A stretch of 62,310 bases of DNA, the filler included, from Stramenopiles sp. TOSAG23-3 (Eukaryota), in the NCBI GenBank assembly GCA_900128585.1. It is 19 parts of 19 records of this genome, joined end to end, with 100 filler letters (N's around TTAATTAATTAA, not from the genome) between each part and the next. Parts side by side here need not be neighbours in the genome. Positions count along the whole stretch, not along the records: positions 6,602 to 9,799 come from LT644365.1; positions 9,900 to 13,093 come from LT644366.1; 17 more parts are not named here. One strand, written 5' to 3'. A program made the position numbers and the translations under genes. Positions 6,502 to 56,457 of the stretch are shown in pieces. Positions within the stretch are counted from its first letter, which is position 1. Every line of letters starts with the position of its first letter. The notes under the pieces are model-generated. The model searched no databases. It was not told where the DNA came from and saw only the letters and a program-made list of their open reading frames with translations.

Positions 6502-7102
6502 NNNNNNNNNNNNNNNNNNNNNNNNNNNNNNNNNNNNNNNNNNNNTTAATTAATTAANNNNNNNNNNNNNNNNNNNNNNNNNNNNNNNNNNNNNNNNNNN
6601 NTCTAAGAAAGAGATCCATTTGATGCTATTGGATGTATCTTTACAAAGAAGAAGATGAAACCATATATTATAACGAATAATATACATATACACAGCATGT
6701 ATATTATTATATAGTTATACTTAATATAATTCATTGGCTCTAATGGAAATGAGGAAGATTTTTAATTATTAATTCTCTCTCTTCTTTCTTCTTCTTCTTT
6801 TTTTTCTTCTTCTTCTTCTTCTTTTCTTCTTCTTCTTTCTTTTAATTCTTCCTTCTTCTTCTTCTTTCTTTTCTTCTCTTCTTCTTTTTTTCGCTAAAAA
6901 AAAAAAAATATTATAAAAAAATAAATAAAAAATGGCTTCTTTCTATATAAAGCAACATTTAAACGCATTGAATTTTATATACATATCGAAATTGAAGGAG
7001 ATGAAGAATCCGACGCGGATATAAGGTTTGAGATTATCACAGTCCATTGAAGGCATTGCGAACGAACGAAACGAACGAAAGGAAACAACACACGCACGCA
7101 CG

Positions 7103-9277
7103 ATGCCAACGACCGAGGAACAGATAGCTGCCCTGGCACAGGACGCGAGCAAGGAGAGGAAGAAAGCGAAAAAGGAGAAAAAATCAAAGAAAGAGAAAAA
7201 ATCAAAGAAAGAGAAAAAATCAAAGAAGGACAAGAAGGCGAGCGCCGGGGGCGACTCGAGCGGCAGCGAGGCAGAGGTCTCCTTCGATGACCTGAAGGCG
7301 ACGAAGCGGAAGCGCCGGGCGTCCTTCGCGGACGACGTGGTCTCCCCGAAAAAGTCCTCGGCGAACCCGGCCAAGATACGAAAGACGATGGACCCCGAGG
7401 GGCGCCCACGGACGCGCTCGTTCGACAAGGGGACGGCAAAAATGTCCGAAGGGAAGGATGAGAACGGGAACCCGCCGTTGACTGACTTTCCGCTCCACCA
7501 GAAGACCATCACGGCCCTTCTCGGACGGGGGATCACCCACCTCTTCCCGATCCAGGCCCTGACCTTCAACACGATCTACAAGGGGAAGGACGTCATCGGC
7601 CGGGCCCGGACGGGGTGCGGGAAGACCCTCGCGTTCGCCCTCCCGATCATCGAGCGCCTCCGCACCGACGAGAGGGTCCAGGCGAAGGCGAGGGGGCGCG
7701 CGCCCGTCTGCCTCGTCCTCGCCCCGACGCGGGAGCTCGCCCGCCAGGTCGCGAAGGAGTTCGAGAGCGTCTCCCCCTCCCTCTCCCACACCTGCATCTA
7801 CGGCGGGGCCTCGTACGAGCCGCAGAAGAGCGCCCTGTGGAAGGGCGTCGACATCGTCGTCGGGACGCCCGGCCGGATCATCGACCACATCGAGCAGCGG
7901 ACCCTGCGCCTGGACGCGCTCTCGTACTTCATCCTGGACGAGGCCGACCAGATGCTGGACATGGGGTTCCAGGAGGACATCCAGAAGGTCGTCGACGCGA
8001 TCCCGCGGGAGGACGGGCGAAAGCTCCAGACGCTCCTGTTCAGCGCGACCCTCCCCTCCTGGGTCAAGCAGACCGCGAAGAAGTACATGGTGGAGCCCGA
8101 AACGATCGACCTCGTCCAGGACGACAACCGGAAGGCGTCCACGAGCGTCCAGCACCTCTGCATCAAGTGCCCGTGGCAGAAGAAGCCCGCCGCGGCCGGG
8201 GACTGCATCCGCGTCTACGGCGGGACCTCCGGCCGGGCCATCCTGTTCTGCGAGACCAAGAAGGAGTGCAACGAGCTGTCCCAGGACCAGAACCTGAACG
8301 TCGTCCGCGGCGGCTGCGGCGTCCTCCACGGGGACATTCCGCAGAAGCAGCGGGAGCGGACGATGCAGGCCTTCCGCGACAGCAAGATTCGCATCCTGAT
8401 CGCCACGGACGTCGCCGCCCGCGGCCTCGACGTCGACGGGGTCGACCTCGTCATCCAGACCCAGCCCCCGGCGAAGAACTTCAGCGGCCGCGCCGACACG
8501 GAGACCTACGTGCACCGCTCCGGCCGGACGGGCCGGGCGGGGCGCAAGGGGACGTGCATCACGTTCTTCACCCACGCCCAGGAGCCCTTGATCACCAGCA
8601 TCGAGCGGGTGATTGGGAACGAGATCAAGCGGATCGGGACCCCCCAGCTGGAGGAATTGGCCCAGGCCTCCGGCATGGTGGAGGCGGAGAAGTGCAAGAA
8701 CGTGGACAAGCGGCTCCTGGAGTACTTTCGCCCCGCGGTGGACGAGCTTTTGACCGCGTTCGAGAGCCCCGAGCTGGCCCTCTGCGCCGCGCTCGCCCAG
8801 GCCGCCGGGTACAGCGCGTACAACCCCCGATCCCTCCTCAGCGCCGAGGAAGGGTTCAAGACCGTCATGTTCCAGTCCGGGCTCGACCAGCCCATGGGGA
8901 CCGCCAGCTACGTCTGGTCCCACATACGGCGGGAATTCTCCGCCGTCCTCGCGGACCAGGTCCGGGGGATGACCGTGACGGACGACGGGACCGGGGCGGT
9001 GTTCGACGTTCGCGCGAAGGACGTCGCAGAGGTAGAAAAGTACGTGGGCAAGAAGGGGGAAAAGGCCCTGTTTACGTTCCCAAAGGAGTTGCCGAAACTG
9101 AAGCAAAGGGAGCGAACCCCGATGCGCCGGGGGGGGCGGGGGGGCGGGCGCTTCGGACGCGGCCGTGGCAGGGGTGGTGGACGCGGGCGTGGCCGAGGCA
9201 GCTACGGGGGCGGCCGAGGCAGGGGCGGCGGCGGCCGTGGCAGGGGCGGGCGCGGAGGGGGGCGCGGGAGGCGTTGA
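7103..9277 (+). CDS. DDX21: Nucleolar DEAD-box RNA helicase (DDX21/DDX50-like)
   Basis: LFPIQ, ARTGCGKT, PTRELA, TPGR, DEAD, SAT, ARGLD, YVHRSGRTGRAG. KKEKKS repeats at the N-terminus, GUCT-like region and RGG tail. First ATG at 7103. Confidence 0.9.
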   Translation: MPTTEEQIAALAQDASKERKKAKKEKKSKKEKKSKKEKKSKKDKKASAGGDSSGSEAEVSFDDLKATKRKRRASFADDVVSPKKSSANPAKIRKTMDPEGRPRTRSFDKGTAKMSEGKDENGNPPLTDFPLHQKTITALLGRGITHLFPIQALTFNTIYKGKDVIGRARTGCGKTLAFALPIIERLRTDERVQAKARGRAPVCLVLAPTRELARQVAKEFESVSPSLSHTCIYGGASYEPQKSALWKGVDIVVGTPGRIIDHIEQRTLRLDALSYFILDEADQMLDMGFQEDIQKVVDAIPREDGRKLQTLLFSATLPSWVKQTAKKYMVEPETIDLVQDDNRKASTSVQHLCIKCPWQKKPAAAGDCIRVYGGTSGRAILFCETKKECNELSQDQNLNVVRGGCGVLHGDIPQKQRERTMQAFRDSKIRILIATDVAARGLDVDGVDLVIQTQPPAKNFSGRADTETYVHRSGRTGRAGRKGTCITFFTHAQEPLITSIERVIGNEIKRIGTPQLEELAQASGMVEAEKCKNVDKRLLEYFRPAVDELLTAFESPELALCAALAQAAGYSAYNPRSLLSAEEGFKTVMFQSGLDQPMGTASYVWSHIRREFSAVLADQVRGMTVTDDGTGAVFDVRAKDVAEVEKYVGKKGEKALFTFPKELPKLKQRERTPMRRGGRGGGRFGRGRGRGGGRGRGRGSYGGGRGRGGGGRGRGGRGGGRGRR

Positions 9278-9901
9278 GAACGTTTTGTTTTTGTTTGGAA
9301 AATGTGTGGAATATAATAAAAACATATTTTTTGTTTTAAAAAAATAAAATACACAAAGTAGTAGTTTTTTCCGAAAAACAAATACAAAACTTTTCCGAAT
9401 TACGAACTACGAAGTACACTGTTCAAACCAGAGAAACGAAAAGGGTGTACCTATTACCAGGGCTAAGATAGTTGTTGAAACTAAATGAAATTTGGAACAA
9501 CCAGACATCGACAAAAGAGGAAGAAGAGAAGATGGATTAAAGCCTCATCATTCGAATTAAATAAAAAAATAGTTTAAATATATATAATAATAATAATAAT
9601 AATTATAATAATTAATAGTCTAATATTATTATAATATACAAATATGATTATTATGATAGGGAATGGTTTGAAAGAGCTGTTCATTTTTTTTTAACTTATT
9701 TTTTTAGTTTCTGTTTCATTCCTTCGATACTAATTTGTAATCAATGCTATGTACCTGTTAATCATGATAAAACTAAAAATGCGCAAAACCGCTGCTTTGN
9801 NNNNNNNNNNNNNNNNNNNNNNNNNNNNNNNNNNNNNNNNNNNTTAATTAATTAANNNNNNNNNNNNNNNNNNNNNNNNNNNNNNNNNNNNNNNNNNNNT
9901 A

Positions 9902-10144
9902 TTCGTTCTTCTTTTTTCTTCTTCTTCTTCTTCTTTTTTTTCTTCTTTTTTTTCTTCTTTTTTTTTCTTCTTTTTTTTCTTCTTTTTTTTTCTTCTTTTT
10001 TTTTTTCAAAAATTATTATGATGATGAATTTCTAATTTCAAATTGTACTGCACTCCCAGTAACTCTTCTGAACAGTGCAACGAATTCAGTTACTTTTGAT
10101 CACAATATGGAAGCCAATTACAGAACCCTAAAAATCGAATTAGT
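9902..10144 (+). repeat. Left terminal inverted repeat
   Basis: TTCGTTCTTC.. pyrimidine tract, then ..CAAATTGTACTGCACTCCCAGTAACTCTTCTGAACAGTGCAACG..AATCGAATTAGT. Reverse complement of the right end apart from a few substitutions and small indels. Confidence 0.93.
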
Positions 10145-10169
10145 TTAAGCGACAATCAAGAAAAAAAAT

Positions 10170-11261
10170 ATGGATAATATAATTGGTAACCCACAACCAA
10201 GAAGGTGGGGGGCAAGAGTTGAGTATACCGCAGTGCGGACAATGCTGCTGGAAGGGTGGACCCCAGCGCAAATGCACGATCGGAACAAAATGATCAGTGA
10301 GGATTTTTTTAGGCGTTTATTGTCCCATTGGCGGCTTCACGAAGAGCTCCCATATGAGACGCGAATTTGGGCGTCAAACTTCAAAACAGTCCAGCAAGGG
10401 ATGGCTCCTGGTGTGGTTCTAGTGCTGAAGGATTTGGCGCTGACACATCCTGACTGGTATCTGTACGAATACTGCAAGTGGCTGTTCAACCATGGGCATG
10501 GGTCATATCACCCCTCTACTGTAAGTAGACAGCTGCACAAACAAGGGCTCAGTTTAGCCGTATTAGATGACATTGCACGACAGAGGGATGCGGAAGAACG
10601 AGCAAGATTTCTTGATGAAATTCACTCTGTCAAATATGTTGAACAGTTTGTCTGTATTGATGAAACACAAAGAGACAGAAATGCAAGTAGAAGGCGAAGG
10701 GGGTGGGGCACAAAGGGCAAAATTCATTCACTTGTTCGACGCTGGCATGGATACCGGCATGATTTGCTGTACACAATGATTGGCGCTGTTGATGTGAATG
10801 GATTTATTCCAGAGTGTTGTCAGCTGGTGGCGAAACCAGAGACAGTTAATGCCGCGAAATTCACTCAATATATACAGGAATACATTTGCCCGGTTATTGG
10901 TAATTATCTGGAAGGAGAGCCACGAAGCGTGGTAACTATGGACAATGCAACTGTGCACAACCCTTTGGTTGTTGAAGCTTTAATTAATGATGCCGGCGGG
11001 CGTGTGATTTGGACGCCGCGTTATTCGCCGGATTTACACCCTATAGAAACGTGTTTCCACCAGTACAAAGCTTGTTTGAAGCGGTTGCACCACGAGGATG
11101 CATACTTAGATGTGTTTAAAGCACACCAGGATGCGATGAATAGCGTCTCGCGTGAAAACATGTTGAATTATTTTTCTTCACAGTGGGGAACACAGACACA
11201 AAATTACACAGAGAGTGAAGACTTACTTTTGATGGCCGTACTGTTGCTCGACGACGATTAA
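10170..11261 (+). CDS. DD34E transposase (IS630/Tc1-like)
   Basis: FVCIDET (D1), VVTMDNATVH (D2), PRYSPDLHPIE (E), with 34 residues between D2 and E. HTH-like PDWYLYEY..HPSTVSRQL upstream. Uninterrupted 363 aa. Confidence 0.92.
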   Translation: MDNIIGNPQPRRWGARVEYTAVRTMLLEGWTPAQMHDRNKMISEDFFRRLLSHWRLHEELPYETRIWASNFKTVQQGMAPGVVLVLKDLALTHPDWYLYEYCKWLFNHGHGSYHPSTVSRQLHKQGLSLAVLDDIARQRDAEERARFLDEIHSVKYVEQFVCIDETQRDRNASRRRRGWGTKGKIHSLVRRWHGYRHDLLYTMIGAVDVNGFIPECCQLVAKPETVNAAKFTQYIQEYICPVIGNYLEGEPRSVVTMDNATVHNPLVVEALINDAGGRVIWTPRYSPDLHPIETCFHQYKACLKRLHHEDAYLDVFKAHQDAMNSVSRENMLNYFSSQWGTQTQNYTESEDLLLMAVLLLDDD

Positions 11262-11420
11262 GACATTCTAATAATGTAATTGTAAACAGATTTAATAATC
11301 TAAAGTATATTTTAAGTGTACTCTTTTAATTTTTTCTCTCAAAAAATTTACTAAGAGAAAAGGCTCTGCGTGCTTTCACGGCACGGGAAACACTGCTCTT
11401 CTTTGGAACACATTACTGTT

Positions 11421-12758
11421 TCACAAGCAACTCTCCATTAGGCGTTTCTTTCCAGCTTTGAATTCGTCTTCTTCAAGTAGCCCTTCATTGTGCATCGTTC
11501 TTAATTTTTCCAGCTCCTGGCGAAAATGGTCTACCGCAGAAAACCTTGTTTCTGTGGTTCTACACTCTATTGTGCCAGTTGCAGAATATGAAGTGCCGCC
11601 TAATCCTGCGCTTTGAACCCCGCCTGATCCTGCGCTTTGAACCGGATTTCCAGCGGTCTCCTGAGGGACCTTCTTTTTGTCTATAAGTTGTTTGAACAAT
11701 TGCTTCACCGATGGACTTTTTTCTGCTTCCCTTTTTCGTTTGTTTGACGATTTTACGGATGGTGGAAACAAGGCTTTTGGGTTGAGAGGCGGATGAGACC
11801 CTCGTTCAACATGGAGATCTGCGTTCATCAAAAATGCGTCGTCTGGAACATATTCATTGTCTTGTAAAACATTCAATCGACCATTTAGTTGTTTCAAAGA
11901 TTCAATATCCAATTTCAATATATACAAGTTCAAAAATTCTGCGGTGAAGCCATGAAACAATGCACTGTCTGGGTCGCTGTATTTTTTCAACAATAGATCC
12001 TTTATTTGACGTTTTACTGATATCTTTTCGTTTATACCTTTGACTTCTTTAGCTTCCTTCGTTGCCGGACTCTGCAGGCCGTCCCCGTTCTTTTCAAAAT
12101 CCTTTTTTGGTGCACCAAAGGCTACAAGATGAACACCACTTTTCAGACTGTGCAATTGTGTAACATGCGATACAACTTTCCAATGATTGTTTGACACGAA
12201 CATATACAAACGGCAATCAATATAAGACAGCGACTCACTGCCTTTGTGAGAATTTCGCAAAATTTTTGTCAGGTCTTCAAAAGAAACCGTGCTGTCCAAA
12301 ATAATCTCATTAGAAGCAACGGGCACCATATCGGACGAAAGAGCAAATGCACCGCTGCCCTTCTTCTTTACTCTGTGCACATCTGACACTAATAACAATT
12401 TTCGTACCAAATCCTGTATTCTTTTTTTATCAACAATGCATATAATCGGGAAAGGTGCTGTTGACGGCTTGTTGGCGAAATAATCCATAGTTAAACGGCA
12501 TTCAGTGGGATTTTTCTTCTTGCCATCCTTCTTCAAAACAAAAAGACTGTTTGCACAAAATGAGTACTTTTCTAGCTCATCTGCAGTGAAAAATTCGTGC
12601 TGTTTCCAGAGGATTTCTAGACACTGGTCTAGTTCTTCTATCGTATTGAATTTTAAATCTACTGTCTTTGCAAACACACTGTGCTTCAATTTCATCCGTG
12701 GTCCCTTTCTTGGTTGCACTGTTACCTGTACCGTGCGCACACTACGTGTAGAGGGCAT
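11421..12758 (-). CDS. Transposon-encoded orphan protein with C-terminal SHOCT-like motif
   Basis: Intact ~445-aa ORF (first ATG 12758; track start 12776 is GTG) inside the TIRs. Ends ELEKLRTMHNEGLLEEDEFKAGKKRLM. Basic NLS-like KRKRE. Confidence 0.8.
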   Translation of the reverse strand: MPSTRSVRTVQVTVQPRKGPRMKLKHSVFAKTVDLKFNTIEELDQCLEILWKQHEFFTADELEKYSFCANSLFVLKKDGKKKNPTECRLTMDYFANKPSTAPFPIICIVDKKRIQDLVRKLLLVSDVHRVKKKGSGAFALSSDMVPVASNEIILDSTVSFEDLTKILRNSHKGSESLSYIDCRLYMFVSNNHWKVVSHVTQLHSLKSGVHLVAFGAPKKDFEKNGDGLQSPATKEAKEVKGINEKISVKRQIKDLLLKKYSDPDSALFHGFTAEFLNLYILKLDIESLKQLNGRLNVLQDNEYVPDDAFLMNADLHVERGSHPPLNPKALFPPSVKSSNKRKREAEKSPSVKQLFKQLIDKKKVPQETAGNPVQSAGSGGVQSAGLGGTSYSATGTIECRTTETRFSAVDHFRQELEKLRTMHNEGLLEEDEFKAGKKRLMESCL

Positions 12759-12864
12759 CTTGTTGACTGATGTCACCTGGTTGGTTTTAGAGTTTTTTCG
12801 AAATAAGATAAGAATGTGTTGATTAAGCGTTTGTATGAAGTGTTTTTTGAAGACTCTTGTTTAC

Positions 12865-13091
12865 ACTAATTCGATTTTTAGGGTTCTGTAATTGGCTTCC
12901 ATATTGTGATCAAAATTAACTGAATTCGTTGCACTGTTCAGAAGAGTTACTGGGAGTGCAGTACAATTTGAAATTCATCATAATAATAATTTTTGAAAAA
13001 AAAAAAAAGAAGAAAAAAAAAAGAAGAAAAAAAAAGAAGAAAAAAAAGAAGAAAAAAAAGAAGAAGAAGAAGAAGAAAAAAGAAGAACGAA
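12865..13091 (-). repeat. Right terminal inverted repeat
   Basis: Reverse complement of 9902-10144, followed by TA at 13092-13093. Confidence 0.93.
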
Positions 13092-13193
13092 TANNNNNNN
13101 NNNNNNNNNNNNNNNNNNNNNNNNNNNNNNNNNNNNNTTAATTAATTAANNNNNNNNNNNNNNNNNNNNNNNNNNNNNNNNNNNNNNNNNNNN

Positions 13194-32814: not shown

Positions 32815-32921
32815 TACTTNNNNNNNNNNNNNNNNNNNNNNNNNNNNNNNNNNNNNNNNNNNNTTAATTAATTAANNNNNNNNNNNNNNNNNNNNNNNNN
32901 NNNNNNNNNNNNNNNNNNNGG

Positions 32922-33068
32922 CCAGAAGCTGAACCCGCAGCCGAACCCGCAGCACCGGGTCTTGCGCCTCTCCCAGAAGGCTGGGGGGAGGCGGCCGATC
33001 CAGGCACAGGGAACGTGTACTACTACAATACTGTTACCCACGAAACGCAATGGGAGAGACCAACTTGA
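32922..33068 (+). CDS. 3' end of a gene with a C-terminal WW domain (not in the ORF track)
   Basis: Translates ..PLPEGWGEAADPGTGNVYYYNTVTHETQWERPT*, a canonical WW motif. Confidence 0.88.
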   Translation, partial: PEAEPAAEPAAPGLAPLPEGWGEAADPGTGNVYYYNTVTHETQWERPT

Positions 33069-33358
33069 GAAGCGGTGGATTTCACGGAGCTAGAGAAGAT
33101 ACTAAGTACTATCTTGTGAAAGTCATATTCGAATATATTCAGAGTTCAGAGAGCTAGAGAAGATACTATCTTGTGAAACTCGAATATTCAGAGTTCAGAG
33201 TATTTTAATTAAAAACAAAAAATTGGCTGTTATTTAGAGTAATATTGATTGGTCTTAAAAGTACACAGCGGCATAAATGTTTTAATTTATTCAGTGTGTT
33301 TTAACTGTTTAAGTTTACTTTAAAATAACAGCCAATTTTTCGTTTTTAAGTGTTTACC

Positions 33359-35593
33359 TTACTTCACGTACGACGTTGCTTTTCTCGCTTCGTGTCCTCG
33401 ATTTAGTTCTAGCATGTACTTCACATTGTCGGTTCGAAGATTTTCATAATCGCGGTGTGCATCTGGCACAATATCCCTTCTAACGTCGTATAGGCTTGAC
33501 GCCTCCTGGCCACGTTTGCTGAAAAAAAGCATGTAGGCCCCTTGCAATTGACGCGATGCCTTGGGCGTTACAACCTCATCGTTAAAGTTGTACCAGTGCT
33601 GTTGGGGACCGTGGGCTTCTGAACTATGACATGCAGTCGCGGTGTAGTGCCCGCATGTAATCGTGGATCCATGGTGATCAATGGCTCCATAGATTTCGTA
33701 CTGCGATCCTGACACATGAATAGATACAGGGACCTTTACCAGGGCGCTTATTTTCCCAGACGATTGCCTTTTTGCATCGTAATAGAACCGTTTCAATGAG
33801 ATCACAAGAATTTTGGGAGTGCGTTGTATGGTCGACCATTTCGTTGAAGTCGACCGGCTTCCACATTTTTCGCAGAAATAATTTTCAAGCTGCTCCTCCG
33901 CGGAAAACCGTTCGACCAGGCCAGCCAGGTTAAGAGCACCAGTCGTCGCCCCGTTGCTGTCCTCTTGTTGCGGCAGTGCAACGGGTAGTTCGAAGAAGAA
34001 GTCCTCTTTGGTAGAGGACTGGTAGCATACCGAGCACTGTACATGGTTGCATATTGTGCCACGAAATATATCCAACGTAGAACTGAGTTTGCAGTTTGTA
34101 ACCAGTTCGTCCAAGAAGAATTTACAAAATTCGGAAGCATCCTGCTGTGCCCCTGTCTGAAATTGAGGCGGGACGTGCTTTCGAAACGCCTTCAGCTGGT
34201 CGCAAAGGGACGGGCGATTCGTCAGCAGCATGCTCATAAACAATCGCTTCGTTGCCTTCAAGAGTTTGAGCGACGGGTTTGCCACTATCCCAGGAACGGT
34301 TACTGTCGTGGAAAAGACAGACGCGCGGAATTCGTCGGTATGGAACAAGACTTGGATGATAGCGTTCAAGTAGCATGTATTCCCAAGATTGTCGAGTCCG
34401 ACCCTTTTGTTGCTATGCGCAAGCCTCGCCCAAGACGCCTGTCGCACGCACTCAATGCGTTCCGCGGGTGCCAGCAAGACACGGCGATGGAATAATGACA
34501 AAACATTGTCATTCCAGCATTTCTGCAGCGCCGGCACCTTGGCGTCTGGAAATGAAAAAAATACTAATTGAACCAGAGTAATGATATCTCGGTGAGCACC
34601 TAGAATAGTTTCTGCTGTTGAGGACTCTGCTATTGCAAACAGAAGTAGCGAGAGCAAGGTATGCTCCATCTTCTCTATTGTACTTTGCATTGGGTGGGGA
34701 ACAAGCATTTGACGAAGCAGCGTTATACCAGGGCCAACAATTTCCGCACGCTCAACGCTATCAAGGTTACCCATCTGCAACAGGCTTCGGCAAAGCGTCC
34801 GGCCGATCGTGCAGGCCGCAATAGGAATCGACAAAATAAGGACGTCGTACCGGTGGGCGTGCGACAAGGACTTGATTAGAAGGTTGACCCACGGGTACGT
34901 TTTTGAGGTTATTGCCCACTGGCTCGCGTTTTGCACCAAGTTCTTGAGCTGGGTGGCATCCAACACGGCCGCAGACTTTGAAAAGAATTGGTAGCATTCC
35001 TCCACGCTGCTGGCGGGGAGCACGGCGAGGATACAACGATCGCCCAACAATCTCCCAGAACCTACTCGTCCTGATGTGCCGTCCGGCGAGGTAAATTTTA
35101 CAGATGTGAGCAGGGACTGAAACAGTTGCGTGCAAGTTTGGAGGTATGCACGAGGCTCCCTGCTCTCTTCCCATGTACGCAAACACAGCCGTTGTACCAT
35201 CTCAACCTGCTCTTCGCTCGTTGTACTTGGCAATTTCAAAACCCAAGAAACAGCGCCTTTTAGGAACCGATTGCTCAGGCCGGCAGGCCAGTTTTCAAGC
35301 GATAAAGCCCGTGCGATGGACATTAGAATCAACTCCCACCCGTACTGTTGCACAAACGCGTTTTCGAACGGTGCCGACAGTAACCATCGTTCGCCAATGC
35401 TTAAAACTTCTAGCGCGTCCGACAGGCCACTACCCGATCCGTACGATAAAGACGTCTTGAGCTGGGCACAAATCATAGGAACAATCGCAACGTGGCGTGC
35501 ACCCTGCTCAACGTTGTTCCACTGTATACTTTGTAAAATTTTAAGAAACCCTTGAACAGGGGACCGTTTTGTACCAGAAGAACCCCCAGACAT
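33359..35593 (-). CDS. Ubiquitin-specific protease (C19; USP35/38-like layout)
   Basis: Cys box GLDNLGNTCYLNA, QQDASEF, two CxxC pairs, His box HHGSTITCGHY, FND. Helical N-terminal half. Confidence 0.92.
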   Translation of the reverse strand: MSGGSSGTKRSPVQGFLKILQSIQWNNVEQGARHVAIVPMICAQLKTSLSYGSGSGLSDALEVLSIGERWLLSAPFENAFVQQYGWELILMSIARALSLENWPAGLSNRFLKGAVSWVLKLPSTTSEEQVEMVQRLCLRTWEESREPRAYLQTCTQLFQSLLTSVKFTSPDGTSGRVGSGRLLGDRCILAVLPASSVEECYQFFSKSAAVLDATQLKNLVQNASQWAITSKTYPWVNLLIKSLSHAHRYDVLILSIPIAACTIGRTLCRSLLQMGNLDSVERAEIVGPGITLLRQMLVPHPMQSTIEKMEHTLLSLLLFAIAESSTAETILGAHRDIITLVQLVFFSFPDAKVPALQKCWNDNVLSLFHRRVLLAPAERIECVRQASWARLAHSNKRVGLDNLGNTCYLNAIIQVLFHTDEFRASVFSTTVTVPGIVANPSLKLLKATKRLFMSMLLTNRPSLCDQLKAFRKHVPPQFQTGAQQDASEFCKFFLDELVTNCKLSSTLDIFRGTICNHVQCSVCYQSSTKEDFFFELPVALPQQEDSNGATTGALNLAGLVERFSAEEQLENYFCEKCGSRSTSTKWSTIQRTPKILVISLKRFYYDAKRQSSGKISALVKVPVSIHVSGSQYEIYGAIDHHGSTITCGHYTATACHSSEAHGPQQHWYNFNDEVVTPKASRQLQGAYMLFFSKRGQEASSLYDVRRDIVPDAHRDYENLRTDNVKYMLELNRGHEARKATSYVK

Positions 35594-36829
35594 TTTTCGT
35601 TAGATTTCAAGACTTCGAACGGTTTGCAGCGTGCATCGTTATTATAAGACCGGCATCGTGGGTACTGGCCGGTGCCGCGCTGTCAATATATTGACCCTCG
35701 ACGACGGTTATTCTAGGCTTAACTAGTGGAGTGAGCGTTCTTACCAAGAAAGCCGCTGAATTGATAATGAACGACTTCAAATTTCAACCCAATCGATGTA
35801 CATTCACAGCCATTGCAATCAAATCGTTTTCTTTCAAAAGTCTAAAATCTTTGAGTGCATTTATATCTATATATGTTAATAGATATGACATTTATACTAT
35901 GAGATAGACCATTCAAGTTTTTGAAATTCGGAGAGATGATAATAATAGTAGTAGAAGAAGAAGAAAGAAGAAGAGAAGGAAGAAAAATAAAAAGAAGAAG
36001 AAGAAGAAAGAAGAAGAGAAGGAAGAAAAATAAAAAGAAGAAGCGAGGAAGAAGAAGAAGAAGAAGAAGAAGAAGAAGAAGAAGAAGAAGAAGAAGAAGA
36101 AGAANNNNNNNNNNNNNNNNNNNNNNNNNNNNNNNNNNNNNNNNNNNNTTAATTAATTAANNNNNNNNNNNNNNNNNNNNNNNNNNNNNNNNNNNNNNNN
36201 NNNNGGGGGGGGGGGGGGGAGTGATTTTAGTTCTAGAAGGTTTGAATAGAGATCGCACAATTCCAACTATTCGACGGTTCAATAAGTCTGTTATTCTTTA
36301 TTTATATTGTATTTTCATGTTATTGTATTATATATAAGTTATTGCAATGGTGTGATTAAGGATTAGTATATAATGAATAAATATTAGTTTGTCGTTTCAT
36401 GTTGTTTTATATATAATTATTAAGCAAGTATCACGAAGTGGTGAATATGAAATTTCTACTATCCTTAACAATTCATTCTCTTGAAGTCTTTTTTTTTTAA
36501 ATTGTTTTTCATCGTTTTAATAATAATAATAATACCTGTCTGTATTAGTTATTCAAATCAAATCAAATCAAAAGAAGAACAAATCAATAAATGAAAGAAG
36601 AAAGAAGAAGAAAGAAGAAGAAGAAGAAATAGAAGAAGAAAGAAGAAGAAGAAAAAGAAATAAAAGAAGAAAGAAGAAGAAAGAAAGAAAGAAGATAGAA
36701 GAAGAAATAAAAGAAGAAAGAAGAAGAAAGAAAGAAGAAGTGTTCAAAGGAAAACCAAAAAACCAAACCAAACCGCATCAAAACCAAAAGCACAATAAGA
36801 GCATCAAAGTGTAAAAGGATGAGAAGATA

Positions 36830-52607: not shown

Positions 52608-52686
52608 GTGAGCACAACAAGGAGATGAAATCAAATGGCTACGTACAGTCGATAAACAGGGATTTTGATATGAAAGGAAAGAAACC
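52608..52686 (+). repeat. 79-bp exact inverted copy of 55697-55775 at the contig end
   Basis: Direct comparison. The same MKSNGYVQSINRDFDMKGKKP peptide starts ORFs at both ends. Confidence 0.95.
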
Positions 52687-53907
52687 CAAAGCGACGTGGA
52701 GATTCACGTCGACACCATCTTCGTGGTGTCCAAGTCGCTTCCGGAACTGCCGTTCTCGGTGGTCGAAGCCTCCAAACCAGGGTCCATGCGCTTCGACGAA
52801 GGGGAGCTGTTGGCGTCCAAAGACGGCGACAAGAAAGAGGAGGACGATTCGGTAGTGAAAGTAGGGCTTTCCACGCGGCTGAACTACCGCTGGATTGACG
52901 TCCGCACCCCCGCCCACCAAAGCATCCTCAGGATTCAATCCCATGTTTGCAACTTGTTCCGCCAGTTTCTGTACGAGCGTGACTTCGTAGAGGTGCACAC
53001 CCCCAAGCTGAATGGCGGCGCGTCCGAGGGCGGTGCGAACTGCTTTACCCTTGACTACTTTGGCCAACAGGGGTGCTTGGCACAGTCCCCTCAGCTCTAC
53101 AAGCAGATCACCAGCGCGTGCTCCGGGATGACCCGCGTGTTCGAGGTCGGGCCTGTGTTTCGCGCGGAAAACTCGCACACGCACCGTCACTTGTGCGAAT
53201 TCACCGGGCTGGACATGGAAATGGAAATCAAGGAGCACTACTTTGAAGTGCTGGAAGTATTTTCGGATTTGTTCATTCACATCTTCGAAGGCATTGAGAA
53301 GCGCTGCAAGCACGAGCTTAACCTCGTTGCCCAAATGTACCCGATCGAACCGTTCAAGTTCTTGAAGCCCTCCCTTCGCATCACCTTCGCGGAGGGCTGC
53401 GCGCTGCTGAAGGAGCACGGGATCTCCGACTACGAGCGTGACGTGCTAGGCATTACCCCGCAAGGTCCGTTGGACGATCTGTCGACCCCGAATGAAAAAT
53501 TGCTGGGCAGAATTGTCAAAGAGAAGTACGGAACGGACTTTTTCATGATGGACGAGTACCCATTGGCTGTCAGGCCCTTTTACACGATGCCAAACCCGAA
53601 GAACCCTGCGTTGAGCAATTCGTACGATTTCTTTATGCGCGGCGAGGAAATCATGAGCGGGGCCCAGCGTGTCCACGACGCAGAGATGCTCATCAAACGA
53701 TGCAAGACAGCAGGCTCCCACGGGGACCCGATGACGGACGAGGCGATAAACGCCATGAAAGGTTACATTGATTCGTTTCGTCACGGTGCATTGCCACACG
53801 GCGGGGGCGGTGTTGGGTTGGAGCGCGTTGTTATGCTTTATCTGGGCTTGAAGAACATTAGGTTGGCGTCCTTCTTCCCACGCGACCCCAAGCGCATTAC
53901 CCCATAA
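52684..53907 (+). CDS. DARS1: Cytosolic aspartyl-tRNA synthetase, 5' partial
   Basis: TQSDVEIHV, TRLNYRWIDVRT, ASEGGA, LAQSPQLYKQ, FRAENSHTHRHLCEF, PHGGGGVGLER, FPRDPKRITP. Confidence 0.96.
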   Translation, partial: TQSDVEIHVDTIFVVSKSLPELPFSVVEASKPGSMRFDEGELLASKDGDKKEEDDSVVKVGLSTRLNYRWIDVRTPAHQSILRIQSHVCNLFRQFLYERDFVEVHTPKLNGGASEGGANCFTLDYFGQQGCLAQSPQLYKQITSACSGMTRVFEVGPVFRAENSHTHRHLCEFTGLDMEMEIKEHYFEVLEVFSDLFIHIFEGIEKRCKHELNLVAQMYPIEPFKFLKPSLRITFAEGCALLKEHGISDYERDVLGITPQGPLDDLSTPNEKLLGRIVKEKYGTDFFMMDEYPLAVRPFYTMPNPKNPALSNSYDFFMRGEEIMSGAQRVHDAEMLIKRCKTAGSHGDPMTDEAINAMKGYIDSFRHGALPHGGGGVGLERVVMLYLGLKNIRLASFFPRDPKRITP

Positions 53908-54303
53908 AGAAAGGGGGCGTTTTATTTTAAAAGTTTAAAAAACAAGAAAATTGGCTGTTATTTAAGTAATTAAAATTAATGTACTGCGAACTGAAATCTA
54001 TCTTTTGGTCTTTACTAAAATCGATATACCCTCGTCTCACTTAGTATTTGACTATCATTCTCAGATGTACTCCATTTGTGATCTGAAATTAAAAGTTTAA
54101 AACCAAAAAAGTGGCTGTGTTATTTTATACAAAAAGAGTAAAATTAATATTTTAAGTTTTAAAACACTGAAGTGCAAAAGTATGTGTGAGGGCAAATTAG
54201 ACTTACGCGAGACTTTTCGAAACTCTTTTACTAACTGCGTATCATATTACTCGTTGGTTTGCCTGAGAAATGATGGGCGGTGTCGAGTTTCTTGATACGA
54301 GAT

Positions 54304-55758
54304 TCAACCGTAATTGTTCGACTTCAGCGTTTTCTTTGATTTCTCAAGCTTCAGGAGTATCCACTCGATCAATCTGGCCACTCTAATGTTTGTTGCTACC
54401 ATCTTGCCAAACTCATCGTACACAACGTTCAGCAAAGATTTATCGAACTGCCCACCTTGTTCAATTTGTTTCTTGACCAATTCCATCAGGGCAAGGTCGT
54501 CTTCTTTCGGCTTTCCTTCCAAATCGCAAGCGAAGAACACAAAATCTCTGTACATCGACCGGGCCTCTTGCGCGAAGAAATGCTCTTCAAGCTTACCGTA
54601 AATTTCGTCGCGGCGGGCAGACCACACGTTTCGCCAGCCTTTCCCATCTGGGCTATGTCGCGTTCGGACGGGGGAATTATGATTGTCAAGGGAATCAGCA
54701 GGTGGATACCCCCCAAAGCCCCAGCCGTCAAAATCTTTGATGACGTGCTCTGCAATCTCCATGTGATCCAGGTCCCTTTCGGCCAGCGTGGACGCTAGGC
54801 TTTCTTCTTTGCCAGTAGACACTGAGACAAACGAGTCCATCCAAGTTTCAACCTTTCGTTGCGCCTTACGGCGGGTTTCTTGCGCATGCACTTCGGGATT
54901 CTCGCTTCTTCGGCGACGACGGCGCATGATCTCTTTGTACACACCGTCGGAGTCATCCTCCCTCGTGGCATCTTGCGTCCGCTTCAGCTCCAGCAACCTC
55001 ATTCGCTCCGTGTGCAGCGCAGCAGTTTTCGCGTGCGGCCCTGCATTTGCTGTATACATGTGGATTCGCTTTGCATCCTCTTTGTTAATTTGTATGTCGA
55101 TCTCACCGTTTGTTTTGCTTTTGATCTCATACACCATGTCCTCTAAATTCTTTACCTGCCTTGCTGCTTTTGTCGGGCTGTTGCCAGACTGCGTCGACCT
55201 GGTGGTCGAAGGGGGGCGCGGCTCCAAGTGTAAAAACGGCCGGAAGTGCAAAAGGTGACCGTTCAACGTGTGGATACCCGCATCGAAAAATTGTCCCCGC
55301 TGCACTTTACCGACAACAGTATCACTCTCGCTAACAACCCGTTTTGGAAACGTTGAGATGGTCAAACGCGCGGACCTAGACTTTATGTTGTCCGGGGCTT
55401 CACCGGCTACAAGCTCTTCAATAGTATGGGGGGCTTTGTTGGATCTACGATTGGGGGATCGTTTGCCCGACCTCCTTTTCAGCTTCTCGCGAAGCATTGG
55501 GTCCATCTGTTCAACGCCTTGCTCCTTCTCCAGCTCTCTTACCAGCAAAAAATGTTTCCCGACCGTGTTCATGTTGCCTACCGGAATGTAAGGCTTCGCT
55601 TGAGGGGAGAATACTCCTCTGCCTTTTGGCAGAATAGGTCGGTTTCTTTTCGCTAGCCTTTTCATAAAACGTTTTGCACCGTTCCTTTTCTTATTCGGTT
55701 TCTTTCCTTTCATATCAAAATCCCTGTTTATCGACTGTACGTAGCCATTTGATTTCAT
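54304..55758 (-). CDS. Hypothetical protein, possibly 5' partial
   Basis: 484-aa ORF with frame open to the contig edge. No domain recognised. Confidence 0.7.
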   Translation of the reverse strand: MKSNGYVQSINRDFDMKGKKPNKKRNGAKRFMKRLAKRNRPILPKGRGVFSPQAKPYIPVGNMNTVGKHFLLVRELEKEQGVEQMDPMLREKLKRRSGKRSPNRRSNKAPHTIEELVAGEAPDNIKSRSARLTISTFPKRVVSESDTVVGKVQRGQFFDAGIHTLNGHLLHFRPFLHLEPRPPSTTRSTQSGNSPTKAARQVKNLEDMVYEIKSKTNGEIDIQINKEDAKRIHMYTANAGPHAKTAALHTERMRLLELKRTQDATREDDSDGVYKEIMRRRRRRSENPEVHAQETRRKAQRKVETWMDSFVSVSTGKEESLASTLAERDLDHMEIAEHVIKDFDGWGFGGYPPADSLDNHNSPVRTRHSPDGKGWRNVWSARRDEIYGKLEEHFFAQEARSMYRDFVFFACDLEGKPKEDDLALMELVKKQIEQGGQFDKSLLNVVYDEFGKMVATNIRVARLIEWILLKLEKSKKTLKSNNYG

Positions 55759-56457
55759 CTCCTTGTTGTGCTCACNNNNNNNNNNNNNNNNNNNNNNNNN
55801 NNNNNNNNNNNNNNNNNNNTTAATTAATTAANNNNNNNNNNNNNNNNNNNNNNNNNNNNNNNNNNNNNNNNNNNNATCCGTGGTGAACGCTCTTAAGTTA
55901 TTTGCTTAATTTCGTTTAATGTCCGCGTCGATGAGTTATTAAACTCGTTGATCATACGAAACCAAAACTGGCTTTCATCAAAGCCACACAAACAAAACAA
56001 TTGAAAAAGAAATCGATCGCTCGTTCTACCTATACTCCCCCCCAAACGCCCGTGTACAATTTTTAACTAACCTATAACCTTGCGCCATCTAAGTGCAATC
56101 AATCAACAGCAACACCCCCAAAGTTATCTTTCGGAAAGTTGAAACCAAACGTAGATTGGATTTTTACGTTTTGTCCCTTCCTCCCGACCCTTTTTCTTCA
56201 ATTTTTTTCAACAAGAAGGGATTCTTTTCTTCTTCTTCTTCTTCTTCTTCTTACTTCTCTCTCACCAAATGTTGCTGCCTGTTATTATTATCTTCTTTTC
56301 TTTTTCTTAGAAGAAAGAAGAAGATGAATGATGGAGGATGATGATAATAAAATAATAATATCTATTAGGATATATATAGACACAGCATAAACATAATAGA
56401 AAAAATAATAATAATCTTTTTTTTCCTTTTTTCTTTCTCTTCGTTTTTTCCTAATGA

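What the first reader, a model, noticed from the sequence alone, without database searches (positions are those of the whole stretch)
9900..13093. Complete two-gene DD34E transposon with long TIRs and an orphan partner gene
Seen: the contig starts and ends with TA, its ends are ~230-240-bp inverted repeats, and it holds an intact DD34E transposase (+) facing an intact ~445-aa ORF (-). Known: IS630/Tc1/mariner elements duplicate TA and usually encode only the transposase; extra ORFs are exceptions (ciliate Tec/TBE, Fanzor-carrying elements). Inference: a break exactly at TA on both sides is what a collapsed multi-copy, recently active element would give. This may be an undescribed two-component family.
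Basis: partly seen in the sequence, partly recalled or inferred. Interest (0 to 1): 0.88.

Follow-up and report, generated by a model that had tools for sequence, protein, structure and literature searches.

The report
Two-gene IS630/Tc1 transposon, orphan partner
This small contig is a cut-and-paste transposon of the IS630/Tc1 kind that carries, between long inverted ends, a second, fast-evolving gene of unknown function that its distant relatives also keep, but the neat TA ends of the contig were probably set by the assembly program, not by the element.

Summary
Contig 9900-13093 has about 250-nt inverted ends, an intact DD34E transposase (+) and an intact convergent 445-aa ORF (-).

The perfect inverted run at the ends is exactly 79 nt. 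The same is true of an unrelated host-gene contig in this window (2 of 21 sequence blocks). That is the mark of an assembly graph breaking at a word shared by both arms. So the terminal TA, "complete" and "multi-copy" are not shown.

The two-gene idea is supported:
- Of 19 distant metagenome relatives with at least 800 nt downstream of the transposase, 16 carry a convergent ORF of 150 aa or more.
- In 5 loci inverted repeats enclose both genes. In one of them (L003) both ends are visible and flanked by TA.
- ORF2 types follow the transposase tree.
- Our ORF2 is a weak but colinear homologue of one such group.

ORF2 matches no known family or fold. It evolves much faster than the transposase (dN/dS 0.6-1.5 against about 0.1).

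About 3-kb two-gene elements of the IS630/Tc1/mariner superfamily, with an "ORF2 of unknown function", are already described in Paramecium. I therefore rate this a new variant of a known kind, of moderate interest.

The parts
9900..13093 (.). Whole contig: all, or the inner part, of one copy of the two-gene element.
   Evidence: The ends are set by the assembler.
9900..10166 (+). Left inverted repeat. The outer part, 9906-10007, is a T/TTC microsatellite. The first 79 nt are the perfect reverse complement of the contig's last 79 nt.
12843..13093 (-). Right inverted repeat. It is 16 nt shorter than the left arm because of a 9-nt and a 7-nt indel.
10170..11261 (+). ORF1, a 363-aa transposase. 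It has N-terminal helix-turn-helix (HTH) DNA-binding domains and a DDE_3 catalytic domain. The DD34E triad is D164 (10659-10661), D258 (10941-10943) and E293 (11046-11048). The ATG lies a few nt inside the inner end of the left repeat.
11262..11420 (.). AT-rich 159-nt spacer between the two convergent stop codons. It presumably holds both 3' ends.
   Evidence: Its function is inferred.
11421..12758 (-). ORF2, a 445-aa orphan protein. The ATG at 12758 lies about 85 nt inside the right repeat.
11436..11516 (-). C-terminal helical hairpin of ORF2 (residues 415-441). It resembles SHOCT, a short C-terminal Pfam domain, but scores below the Pfam cut-off. It is the only confidently folded compact part. 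The sister protein P0028 has a SAM domain (sterile alpha motif, an interaction module) in its place.
11596..11643 (-). 24-nt tandem duplication inside ORF2's low-complexity linker (VQSAGSGG / VQSAGLGG).

Best explanation
The contig is one copy, whole or lacking only the outermost repeat, of an autonomous cut-and-paste DNA transposon of the IS630/Tc1 (DD34E) kind. The host is probably a marine microbial eukaryote.

Its lineage has a fixed layout: long terminal inverted repeats and two convergent genes, each starting just inside one repeat. One gene is the transposase. The other, ORF2, is specific to this lineage, evolves fast, and has been inherited together with the transposase through deep divergence.

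Shown: the anatomy, the family of the transposase, the conservation of the layout, and the link between ORF2 type and transposase clade.

Inferred:
- ORF2 works in the nucleus. It has a KRKR-type basic patch, which I read as a nuclear signal from recall.
- It acts as an oligomer, through a swappable C-terminal module: SHOCT-like here, SAM in the sister protein.
- It is an accessory factor of the element. Most likely it helps or controls the transposase at the repeats, as the second protein of PIF/Harbinger elements does. Next most likely, it counteracts host silencing.

The contig ends are where the assembly graph met a 79-nt word shared by both arms. They are not proven element ends.
For: Transposase:
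- Pfam DDE_3, E 6.1e-20.
- NCBIfam IS630, 96.2 bits.
- D164/D258/E293 are invariant in 11 of 11 aligned relatives.
- DDE_3 is found in 11 of 11 and HTH domains in most.
- Bacterial IS630 copies on plasmids are 27-29% identical over 72-85% of the protein.

Layout in relatives:
- 54 metagenome loci encode relatives.
- I tabulated 40 of the 54, leaving out L032, L037-L043, L048 and L050-L054 (GC-rich loci with stacked ORFs, or partial matches).
- 19 of the 40 have at least 800 nt downstream of the transposase. 16 of those 19 have a convergent ORF of 150 aa or more; 3 of 19 have a same-strand ORF of that size.
- Inverted repeats enclose both genes in L003, L019, L030, L031 and L001.
- In L003 both flanks are visible. 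The repeat starts TA|TTG on each side and the flanks differ.

ORF2 belongs to the element:
- ORF2 groups A, B and C and 'ours' are each one side of a branch with 99-100% support. The six ORF2 labels (A, B, C, D, 'other2', 'ours') need 5 changes in all, the least possible, against a shuffled mean of 12.3 (0 of 200 shuffles as low).
- Our ORF2 against group A: phmmer E 8.7e-5; hhalign 48.8% over 56 columns; colinear motifs along the whole length.
- An HMM built from group A alone scores our ORF2 at 18.7 bits, against a best of 11.1 among 2000 shuffles.
- The motif P.KN.[YF][PQ] occurs 8 times in 873 six-frame ORFs. All 8 lie in convergent ORFs of groups A, C, D and L014.

Fast evolution of ORF2:
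- L002/L003: dN/dS 0.125 for the transposase against 0.96 and 1.55 for ORF2.
- L006/L009: 0.082 against 0.62.

The element elsewhere:
- The same element is in a run with another organism label and another study, with 13 substitutions and 1 indel in 2783 nt.
- RNA-library contigs cover 10021-10843.

Assembler origin of the ends: exactly 79 nt in 2 of 21 blocks.
Against: ORF2's function is not shown by any test.
- No Pfam or NCBIfam family matches except a sub-threshold SHOCT match.
- The models are poor: pLDDT 36 and 53.
- There is no fold match beyond a generic helical hairpin.

Homology of our ORF2 to groups B, C and D rests on short motifs only.
- Among 55 profile-profile pairs, only ours-A and a spurious 5-column pair exceed 10% probability.
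- The ours+A HMM finds none of B, C or D.

dN/dS near 1 also fits a gene under little constraint. ORF2 is split in several relatives: L003, L019, L031, L014, L030 and L001. These splits could be introns or decay.

Three of 19 loci lack the convergent ORF.

Kin share labels, so the tree result shows co-inheritance, not function.

The RNA contigs may be DNA carried over into the library.
Confidence: 0.6

Rival explanations
1. One reading: the contig is a complete element whose terminal TA dinucleotides are the target-site duplication. It broke there because many recent copies with different flanks were collapsed by the assembler.
For: - TA is the target of IS630/Tc1/mariner elements (established knowledge; stated in PMC7325037).
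- The one relative with both flanks (L003) has TA|TTG ends. Ours are TA|TTCG. Paramecium DDE3 ends in TATTGTC.
- Other assemblies gave contigs of similar size for the same element and for a sister element: 3152 nt and 3094 nt.
- A 95%-identical ORF2 fragment in a different context (P0029) hints at further copies.
Against: - Exactly 79 nt of perfect inverted sequence ends both this contig and an unrelated one (2 of 21 blocks). That is expected from the graph alone, even for a single copy.
- Many contigs of this assembly stop in purine/pyrimidine tracts like these.
- No flank and no baseline depth could be seen. The outer 113 nt were skipped as repeats.
- No second copy lies in the window.
Confidence: 0.35
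2. ORF2 is not a transposition factor. It is a passenger that serves the element in another way: for instance an anti-silencing or host-interaction protein locked in an arms race.
For: - dN/dS of 0.6-1.5 beside a constrained transposase.
- 4 nonsynonymous against 3 synonymous changes in ORF2, and 0 against 3 in ORF1, between two near-identical copies.
- The C-terminal module has been swapped: SHOCT-like here, SAM in P0028.
- IS630/Tc1/mariner transposases are known to act alone (established knowledge).
Against: No domain or fold points to any such activity. The fixed position and orientation over deep divergence fit a core function equally well.
Confidence: 0.3
3. The convergent ORFs are decaying or meaningless reading frames with no function.
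For: dN/dS is near 1 in one pair. Frames are split in several loci. No known domain matches.
Against: - Open frames of 445-703 aa persist in lineages whose transposases are only about 31-36% identical.
- Colinear motifs are shared.
- All 8 motif hits fall in these ORFs.
- The real sequence scores above all 2000 shuffles.
Confidence: 0.07
4. The inverted ends are an assembly chimera, as seems to be the case in contig 52608-55775, and no real repeat exists.
For: The other contig's inverted ends are 82 nt and stop there. Its right arm overlaps the start of a gene.
Against: - Here the repeat runs about 250 nt with mismatches and two indels, which a chimera would not give.
- Independent contigs of two runs break inside it and hold a shared repeat piece.
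- Relatives have such repeats.
Confidence: 0.03

Closest known systems
Simple two-gene elements of the IS630/Tc1/mariner (ITm) superfamily in Paramecium: Tennessee, DDE1, DDE2, DDE3 (PMC5405496; passages and supplementary tables seen)
   Same: About 3 kb (2933-3049 nt). A DDE transposase plus one 'ORF2 of unknown function' that is conserved among the elements. TIR ends begin with TA; DDE3 has TATTGTC.
   Different: - Their triads are DD32E/DD33E; ours is DD34E.
- The host is a ciliate germline.
- Their ORF2 passages show none of our family's motifs: 0 hits for five KN.YP variants in 3 supplementary files.
- A full comparison was not run. Figure S4, a PDF, was not seen.
IS630 / Tc1 single-gene elements
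   Same: DDE_3 catalytic domain, DD34E spacing, N-terminal HTH domains, inverted ends. A TA target is probable.
   Different: These encode the transposase only and need no other element protein. Here a second gene is kept inside the repeats, and the repeats are long (about 250 nt or more).
PIF/Harbinger two-gene transposons
   Same: Two element genes, one the transposase. The second protein is needed to bring the transposase to the ends (recalled knowledge). This is the working model for ORF2.
   Different: A different transposase superfamily. Their second protein has a Myb/SANT domain, and none is found in ORF2.
[quoted passage not shown]
   Same: ITm transposase with further ORFs inside the ends.
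   Different: Their extra genes are recognisable: tyrosine recombinase, nucleases, methyltransferases, Fanzor. ORF2 here is none of these. No relative of ours was found in viral contigs.

Membership tests
IS630/Tc1/mariner superfamily (transposase) | DDE catalytic domain of the DDE_3 type | tested here: met
   Pfam PF13358, E 6.1e-20, 72 bits against a cut-off of 28.6. Found in 11 of 11 aligned relatives.
IS630/Tc1/mariner superfamily (transposase) | Catalytic triad with 34 residues between the second D and E (the Tc1-type DD34E) | tested here: met
   D164, D258 and E293 are invariant columns, and there are no gaps between D258 and E293 in 11 sequences.
IS630/Tc1/mariner superfamily (transposase) | N-terminal paired helix-turn-helix DNA-binding region | tested here: inconclusive
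   HTH_33 scores 22.6 bits, under the cut-off of 25, and HTH_32 is weak. Relatives match HTH_33 (6 of 11), HTH_32 (3), HTH_23, HTH_28 and HTH_Tnp_Tc3_2 (1 each).
IS630/Tc1/mariner superfamily (element) | Terminal inverted repeats flanked by a duplicated TA | tested here: inconclusive
   The repeats are present. The contig starts and ends with TA, but its ends are set by the assembler and the flanks were not seen. Relative L003 has TA at both ends of its repeat, with differing flanks.
NCBIfam NF033545, IS630 family transposase (equivalog) | Score at or above the curated cut-off | tested here: not met
   96.2 bits against a cut-off of 100. It is close, but I do not file it as a bacterial IS630 equivalog.
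Fanzor/TnpB (for ORF2) | C-terminal RuvC-like motif with a C4 zinc finger (motif as given in PMC3627910) | tested here: not met
   0 of 28 ORF2-family sequences have a C4 pattern, and ORF2 has no CxxC at all. No Pfam hit.
PIF/Harbinger second protein (for ORF2) | Myb/SANT-like DNA-binding domain | tested here: not met
   No such Pfam match in ORF2 or in 22 related sequences at E up to 0.1.
Paramecium ITm ORF2 family (for ORF2) | Sequence similarity to the Paramecium ORF2 proteins | tested here: inconclusive
   Only a motif look-up was possible: 0 hits for five variants in 3 supplementary files. A search of 1.84 billion proteins with ORF2 gave 4 hits, all from this element's near kin. No direct alignment was run.
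SHOCT domain (C-terminus of ORF2) | Pfam PF09851 at the gathering score | tested here: inconclusive
   19.2 bits against a cut-off of 27, covering 27 of 28 profile positions. The model shows a confident helical hairpin there.

The most novel reading that the evidence does not exclude
A deep clade of IS630/Tc1-type transposons in marine protists is an obligate two-component system. Unlike the textbook self-sufficient Tc1/mariner elements, it needs ORF2. ORF2 would be a fast-evolving nuclear protein, expressed from the opposite terminal repeat, that either loads the transposase on the long repeats or shields the element from host silencing. It would have co-diversified with the transposase under an arms race.
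Probability: 0.3. Interest if true: 0.75.

Novelty: new variant of a known kind. Interest (0 to 1): 0.5.

Why it matters
Tc1/mariner and IS630 elements are the model of a transposon that needs only its own transposase. That is why they serve as gene-transfer tools across kingdoms.

A lineage that has kept a second gene inside its ends through long divergence raises two possibilities. Either self-sufficiency is not universal in the superfamily, or these elements carry a device against host control. Beside the ciliate elements, it gives a second, independent case to ask what such partner genes do.

The finding also carries a practical warning. Small contigs with perfect inverted ends of one fixed length are a signature of the assembler. 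Their termini should not be read as transposon ends or as evidence of copy number.

Tried and rejected
- **Whole genome:** none is held. Copy number and empty sites could not be searched.
- **Earlier notes of this scan:** nothing for this place or for either protein.
- **Reads:** the four runs laid are contigs that break inside the repeat. The outer 113 nt were skipped as repeats, so there are no loose ends, no flanks and no usable depth baseline.
- **ORF2 homologue searches:** the word-based search gave 1 hit. The profile search gave 2. The Atlas gave no usable hit. The PDB sequence search gave 0.
- **Structure:** the single-sequence model has pLDDT 35.9 and the 11-row alignment model 53.1. 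Foldseek against the PDB gave nothing at E <= 0.001. The VIA wide search matched only the C-terminal hairpin, at Z <= 6.5, below the level that means anything for helices.
- **Transposase-ORF2 complex:** no verdict (score 0.01, the partner's fold is uncertain). This says nothing either way.
- **Viral contigs:** no relative of either protein.
- **Prokaryote genome contigs:** 0 hits for a 40-nt repeat word. No transposase relative by the patterns used.
- **Rfam:** 0 matches in the window.
- **Bacterial promoter/terminator scan:** at chance level, and not apt for a eukaryote.
- **25-row ORF2 alignment:** too ragged to use.
- **N-terminal M..TR motif:** seen in ours, P0030, L027, L019, L002 and L003, but it also hits spurious Arg-rich frames. 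I do not count it.
- **Careful tree:** it did not finish, so the quick tree stands in for it.
- **Transposase phylogeny against named Tc1, mariner, pogo, Tec and TBE clades:** not done, because reference sequences could not be brought in.
- **Closest relatives:** the contigs of P0003 and P0004 could not be fetched.
- **Papers:** searches found no description of this lineage. Repbase is not searchable here.
Full report
**What the window is.** The window is not one stretch of a genome. It is a chain of small contigs of nearly equal, slowly falling length, joined by N runs and a TTAATTAATTAA spacer: 18 spacers and 21 N-free blocks. No whole genome is held for it. The finding covers one whole contig, 9900-13093, of 3194 nt.

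The neighbouring contigs carry GC-rich genes of eukaryotic look. One is a 749-aa DEAD-box-like ORF with an RGG tail (my reading of the sequence, not tested). Many contigs stop in purine or pyrimidine tracts.

**The observation.**
- The contig starts TATTCGTTCTTC and ends with its exact reverse complement.
- The ends are inverted repeats. Arms of 133 nt at 93% and 98 nt at 94% join into one 267-nt match at 89.9%. The alignment is alike up to about column 245, with a 9-nt and a 7-nt indel.
- The outer ~100 nt of each arm is a T/TTC microsatellite, but its irregular pattern is the same in both arms.
- ORF1 (10170-11261, +) has 363 aa. ORF2 (11421-12758, -) has 445 aa from its first ATG. The two genes converge on a 159-nt AT-rich spacer, and each starts just inside one repeat.

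**The transposase.** ORF1 matches Pfam DDE_3 (E 6.1e-20) and, weakly, HTH_33. It scores 96.2 bits on NCBIfam's IS630 model, just under the cut-off of 100. In an alignment with ten relatives, D164, D258 and E293 are invariant and no gap lies between the last two, so the triad is DD34E. All 11 sequences match DDE_3 and most match an HTH family.

IS630 transposases on bacterial plasmids are 27-29% identical over 72-85% of the protein. A profile of the family touches the Mos1, SETMAR and Sleeping Beauty catalytic domains only at E 0.01-0.14. I did not place it among the named eukaryotic clades, because reference sequences could not be brought in.

**What the contig ends mean.** I measured how far each of the 21 blocks is the perfect reverse complement of itself from the ends. 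The run is 79 nt in this contig, 79 nt in contig 52608-55775, and 0-3 nt in the other 19.

The second contig has no other repeat (82 nt at 99%). It holds a 403-aa ORF that looks like an aminoacyl-tRNA synthetase (my reading, not tested) and a 484-aa ORF, but no transposase.

Two unrelated contigs ending in exactly the same length of perfect inverted sequence point to the assembler. In a de Bruijn graph, a word shared by both arms of an inverted repeat is one node, and a contig stops there. In our element the inner part of the repeat has no perfect run that long: differences lie at most about 60 nt apart. So the outermost shared word is where the contig had to end, at any copy number. The repeat may run on beyond 9900 and 13093.

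The terminal TA is therefore weak evidence. Some things speak for real ends:
- the sequence leaves the microsatellite there;
- the one relative with both flanks has TA|TTG ends, and ours are TA|TTCG;
- Paramecium DDE3 ends in TATTGTC.

I put the chance that the contig ends are the true ends at about one in two.

The read test could not decide. The runs that hold the element are kept as contigs that break inside the repeat, and the outer 113 nt were skipped as repeats. It did show three things:
- The same element is present in a run with a different organism label and a different study, with 13 substitutions and one indel in 2783 nt.
- Parts of it are present in a third study.
- Contigs of a marine metatranscriptome library cover 10021-10843, the inner left repeat and the first half of the transposase gene. 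DNA carry-over cannot be excluded.

**Is the second gene part of the element?** ORF2 is nearly an orphan. A full HMMER pass over 1.84 billion proteins gave 4 hits:
- P0001, a 99% variant, which is the allele of the other run;
- P0029, a 95% fragment in another context;
- P0028, a partial protein of a sister element, 44% identical over residues 200-369;
- P0030, another partial protein of the sister element, 47% identical over residues 4-105.

The transposase has more kin: 26 proteins. One is identical and sits on a 3152-nt contig. Two are 62-64% identical, one of them on a 3094-nt contig. The rest are mostly 27-45% identical. The only one that carries an organism name comes from the oomycete Aphanomyces euteiches.

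A scan of metagenome contigs gave 54 loci, none from the closest kin. I tabulated 40 of them, leaving out 14 that are GC-rich with stacked ORFs or only partial matches. Nineteen have at least 800 nt downstream of the transposase. Sixteen of those have a convergent ORF of 150 aa or more, up to 703 aa. Only 3 have a same-strand ORF of that size. Inverted repeats enclose both genes in L003, L019, L030, L031 and L001. In L003 a 4.4-kb unit sits inside a 6.1-kb contig, with TA at both ends of the repeat and unlike flanks.

**Are the convergent ORFs one family?** BLASTP splits them into groups A (L019, L021, L027, L031), B (L002, L003, L008, L011), C (L006, L009, L030), D (L010, L012) and singles.

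Our ORF2 links to group A in several ways:
- phmmer E 8.7e-5 in a 28-sequence set;
- hhalign 48.8% over 56 columns;
- colinear motifs from the N-terminus (VR..V.F; T.F[DE]EL) through L.Y...W..H.W, FG..K, SP..K and Y.D...L[YF]HG to E[KR][NG].[FHY]PP;
- an HMM of group A alone scores it at 18.7 bits, above all 2000 shuffles, whose best is 11.1.

The other groups are not joined by profiles. Of 55 pairs, only ours-A and one spurious 5-column pair pass 10%, and the ours+A HMM adds only L026. A signature does join them, though. P.KN.[YF][PQ] occurs 8 times in 873 six-frame ORFs (105,015 residues), and all 8 hits lie in the convergent ORFs of A, C, D and L014. Group B shares the FGA and Y.D..W[LM][YF]H motifs instead.

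On the transposase tree, groups A, B, C and 'ours' are each one side of a branch with 99-100% support. All labels together need the minimum of 5 changes, against a shuffled mean of 12.3 (0 of 200 as low, repeated without two long rows). Both are quick trees; the careful one did not finish. So the partner gene has travelled with the transposase. That all groups descend from one ancestral ORF2 is likely but not proven.

**How ORF2 evolves.** Between L002 and L003, dN/dS is 0.125 for the transposase (398 codons) but 0.96 and 1.55 for the two ORF2 segments (469 and 213 codons). Between L006 and L009 it is 0.082 against 0.62. Between the two near-identical copies of our element, ORF1 has 3 synonymous changes and a TAA-to-CAA change of the stop codon. 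ORF2 has 4 nonsynonymous and 3 synonymous changes.

Long open frames and colinear motifs persist while dN/dS stays high. That fits a functional protein under weak or diversifying selection better than it fits junk. Several relatives have the frame in two or three pieces, which may be introns or decay.

**What ORF2 might do.** No family matches except SHOCT at the C-terminus, below the cut-off (19.2 against 27 bits). The sister protein P0028 has a SAM domain there instead (29 bits, above the cut-off).

The models are poor. Only a helical stretch around residues 235-360 and the C-terminal hairpin are confident. Fold searches return only generic hairpins.

ORF2 is not Fanzor/TnpB: 0 of 28 sequences have a C4 finger (motif from PMC3627910). 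It has no Myb/SANT domain.

From the basic KRKR patch (a recalled rule of thumb for nuclear signals), the swappable interaction module, the fixed place beside the opposite repeat and the fast evolution, I infer a nuclear, oligomeric accessory protein of the element. Its most likely role is as a helper or regulator of the transposase at the long repeats. The second most likely is a counter-measure against host silencing. None of this is shown.

**Known precedents.** Searches of the paper library found no account of this lineage.
- The haptophyte Tc1-Mariner family Luffy has one ORF (PMC10138859, passages).
- Broad surveys mention few protist elements (PMC7325037 and a 2021 preprint, passages).
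- 'Tn630' is a bacterial composite (PMC11544213, one section).
- In Paramecium, all 13 ITm transposons have, beside the DDE gene, an 'ORF2 of unknown function' that is similar among them. Four of them are about 3-kb elements with just these two genes and DD32E/DD33E triads (PMC5405496: passages, Tables S4 and S6, parts of Text S2). Their ORF2 passages show none of our motifs. No alignment was run, and the PDF with their ORF2 alignment could not be seen.

**Verdict.** This is a real IS630/Tc1-type element with a conserved, orphan partner gene, from a lineage of probably marine protists that I did not find described. The two-gene layout itself has a ciliate precedent. The claims of completeness, TA duplication and high copy number rest on contig ends that the assembler set.

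I rate it a new variant of a known kind, with moderate interest.

Noticed in passing
window 52608-55775: This contig has exactly 79 nt of perfect inverted sequence at its two ends (82 nt at 99%) and no other repeat. It holds a synthetase-like 403-aa ORF and a 484-aa ORF whose start lies in the right arm. It looks like an assembly artefact, or a short real inverted duplication.
   Followed up: partly
window, ends of several contigs (for example 23061, 26348, 32920-36104, 59144): Many contigs of this assembly begin or end in purine or pyrimidine microsatellites like those in the element's repeats. Such tracts are common in this genome and seem to break the assembly.
   Followed up: no
window 11259-11261: In the copies held by two other runs, the transposase stop codon TAA reads CAA. 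That would lengthen the protein by six residues, up to the next stop.
   Followed up: partly
window 10170-12758 against 7028-9277 and 52696-53907: GC at third codon positions is 0.46 (ORF1) and 0.40 (ORF2), against 0.89 and 0.75 in two conserved-looking host ORFs. Other ORFs of the window lie at 0.44-0.57. The element may be a recent arrival, or the window may mix sources.
   Followed up: partly
window 11596-11643: A 24-nt tandem duplication (96% alike) lies in the low-complexity linker of ORF2.
   Followed up: no
L023 395-2818 (-): In this relative an 808-aa ORF with EF-hand domains lies upstream of, and divergent from, the transposase. It is either a host gene at the insertion site or a different cargo.
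   Followed up: no
L032, L037-L043, L048, L054: This is a GC-rich group of related transposase loci with many stacked ORFs on both strands. I left it out of the counts, and whether it has a partner gene is unknown.
   Followed up: no
L019 1-77 and 4005-4081; L001 58-123 and 3750-3815; L031 279-311 and 4032-4064: Several metagenome contigs of relatives also stop exactly where a perfect inverted match to their other arm begins (77, 66 and 33 nt). This is the same assembler effect as in the window.
   Followed up: partly
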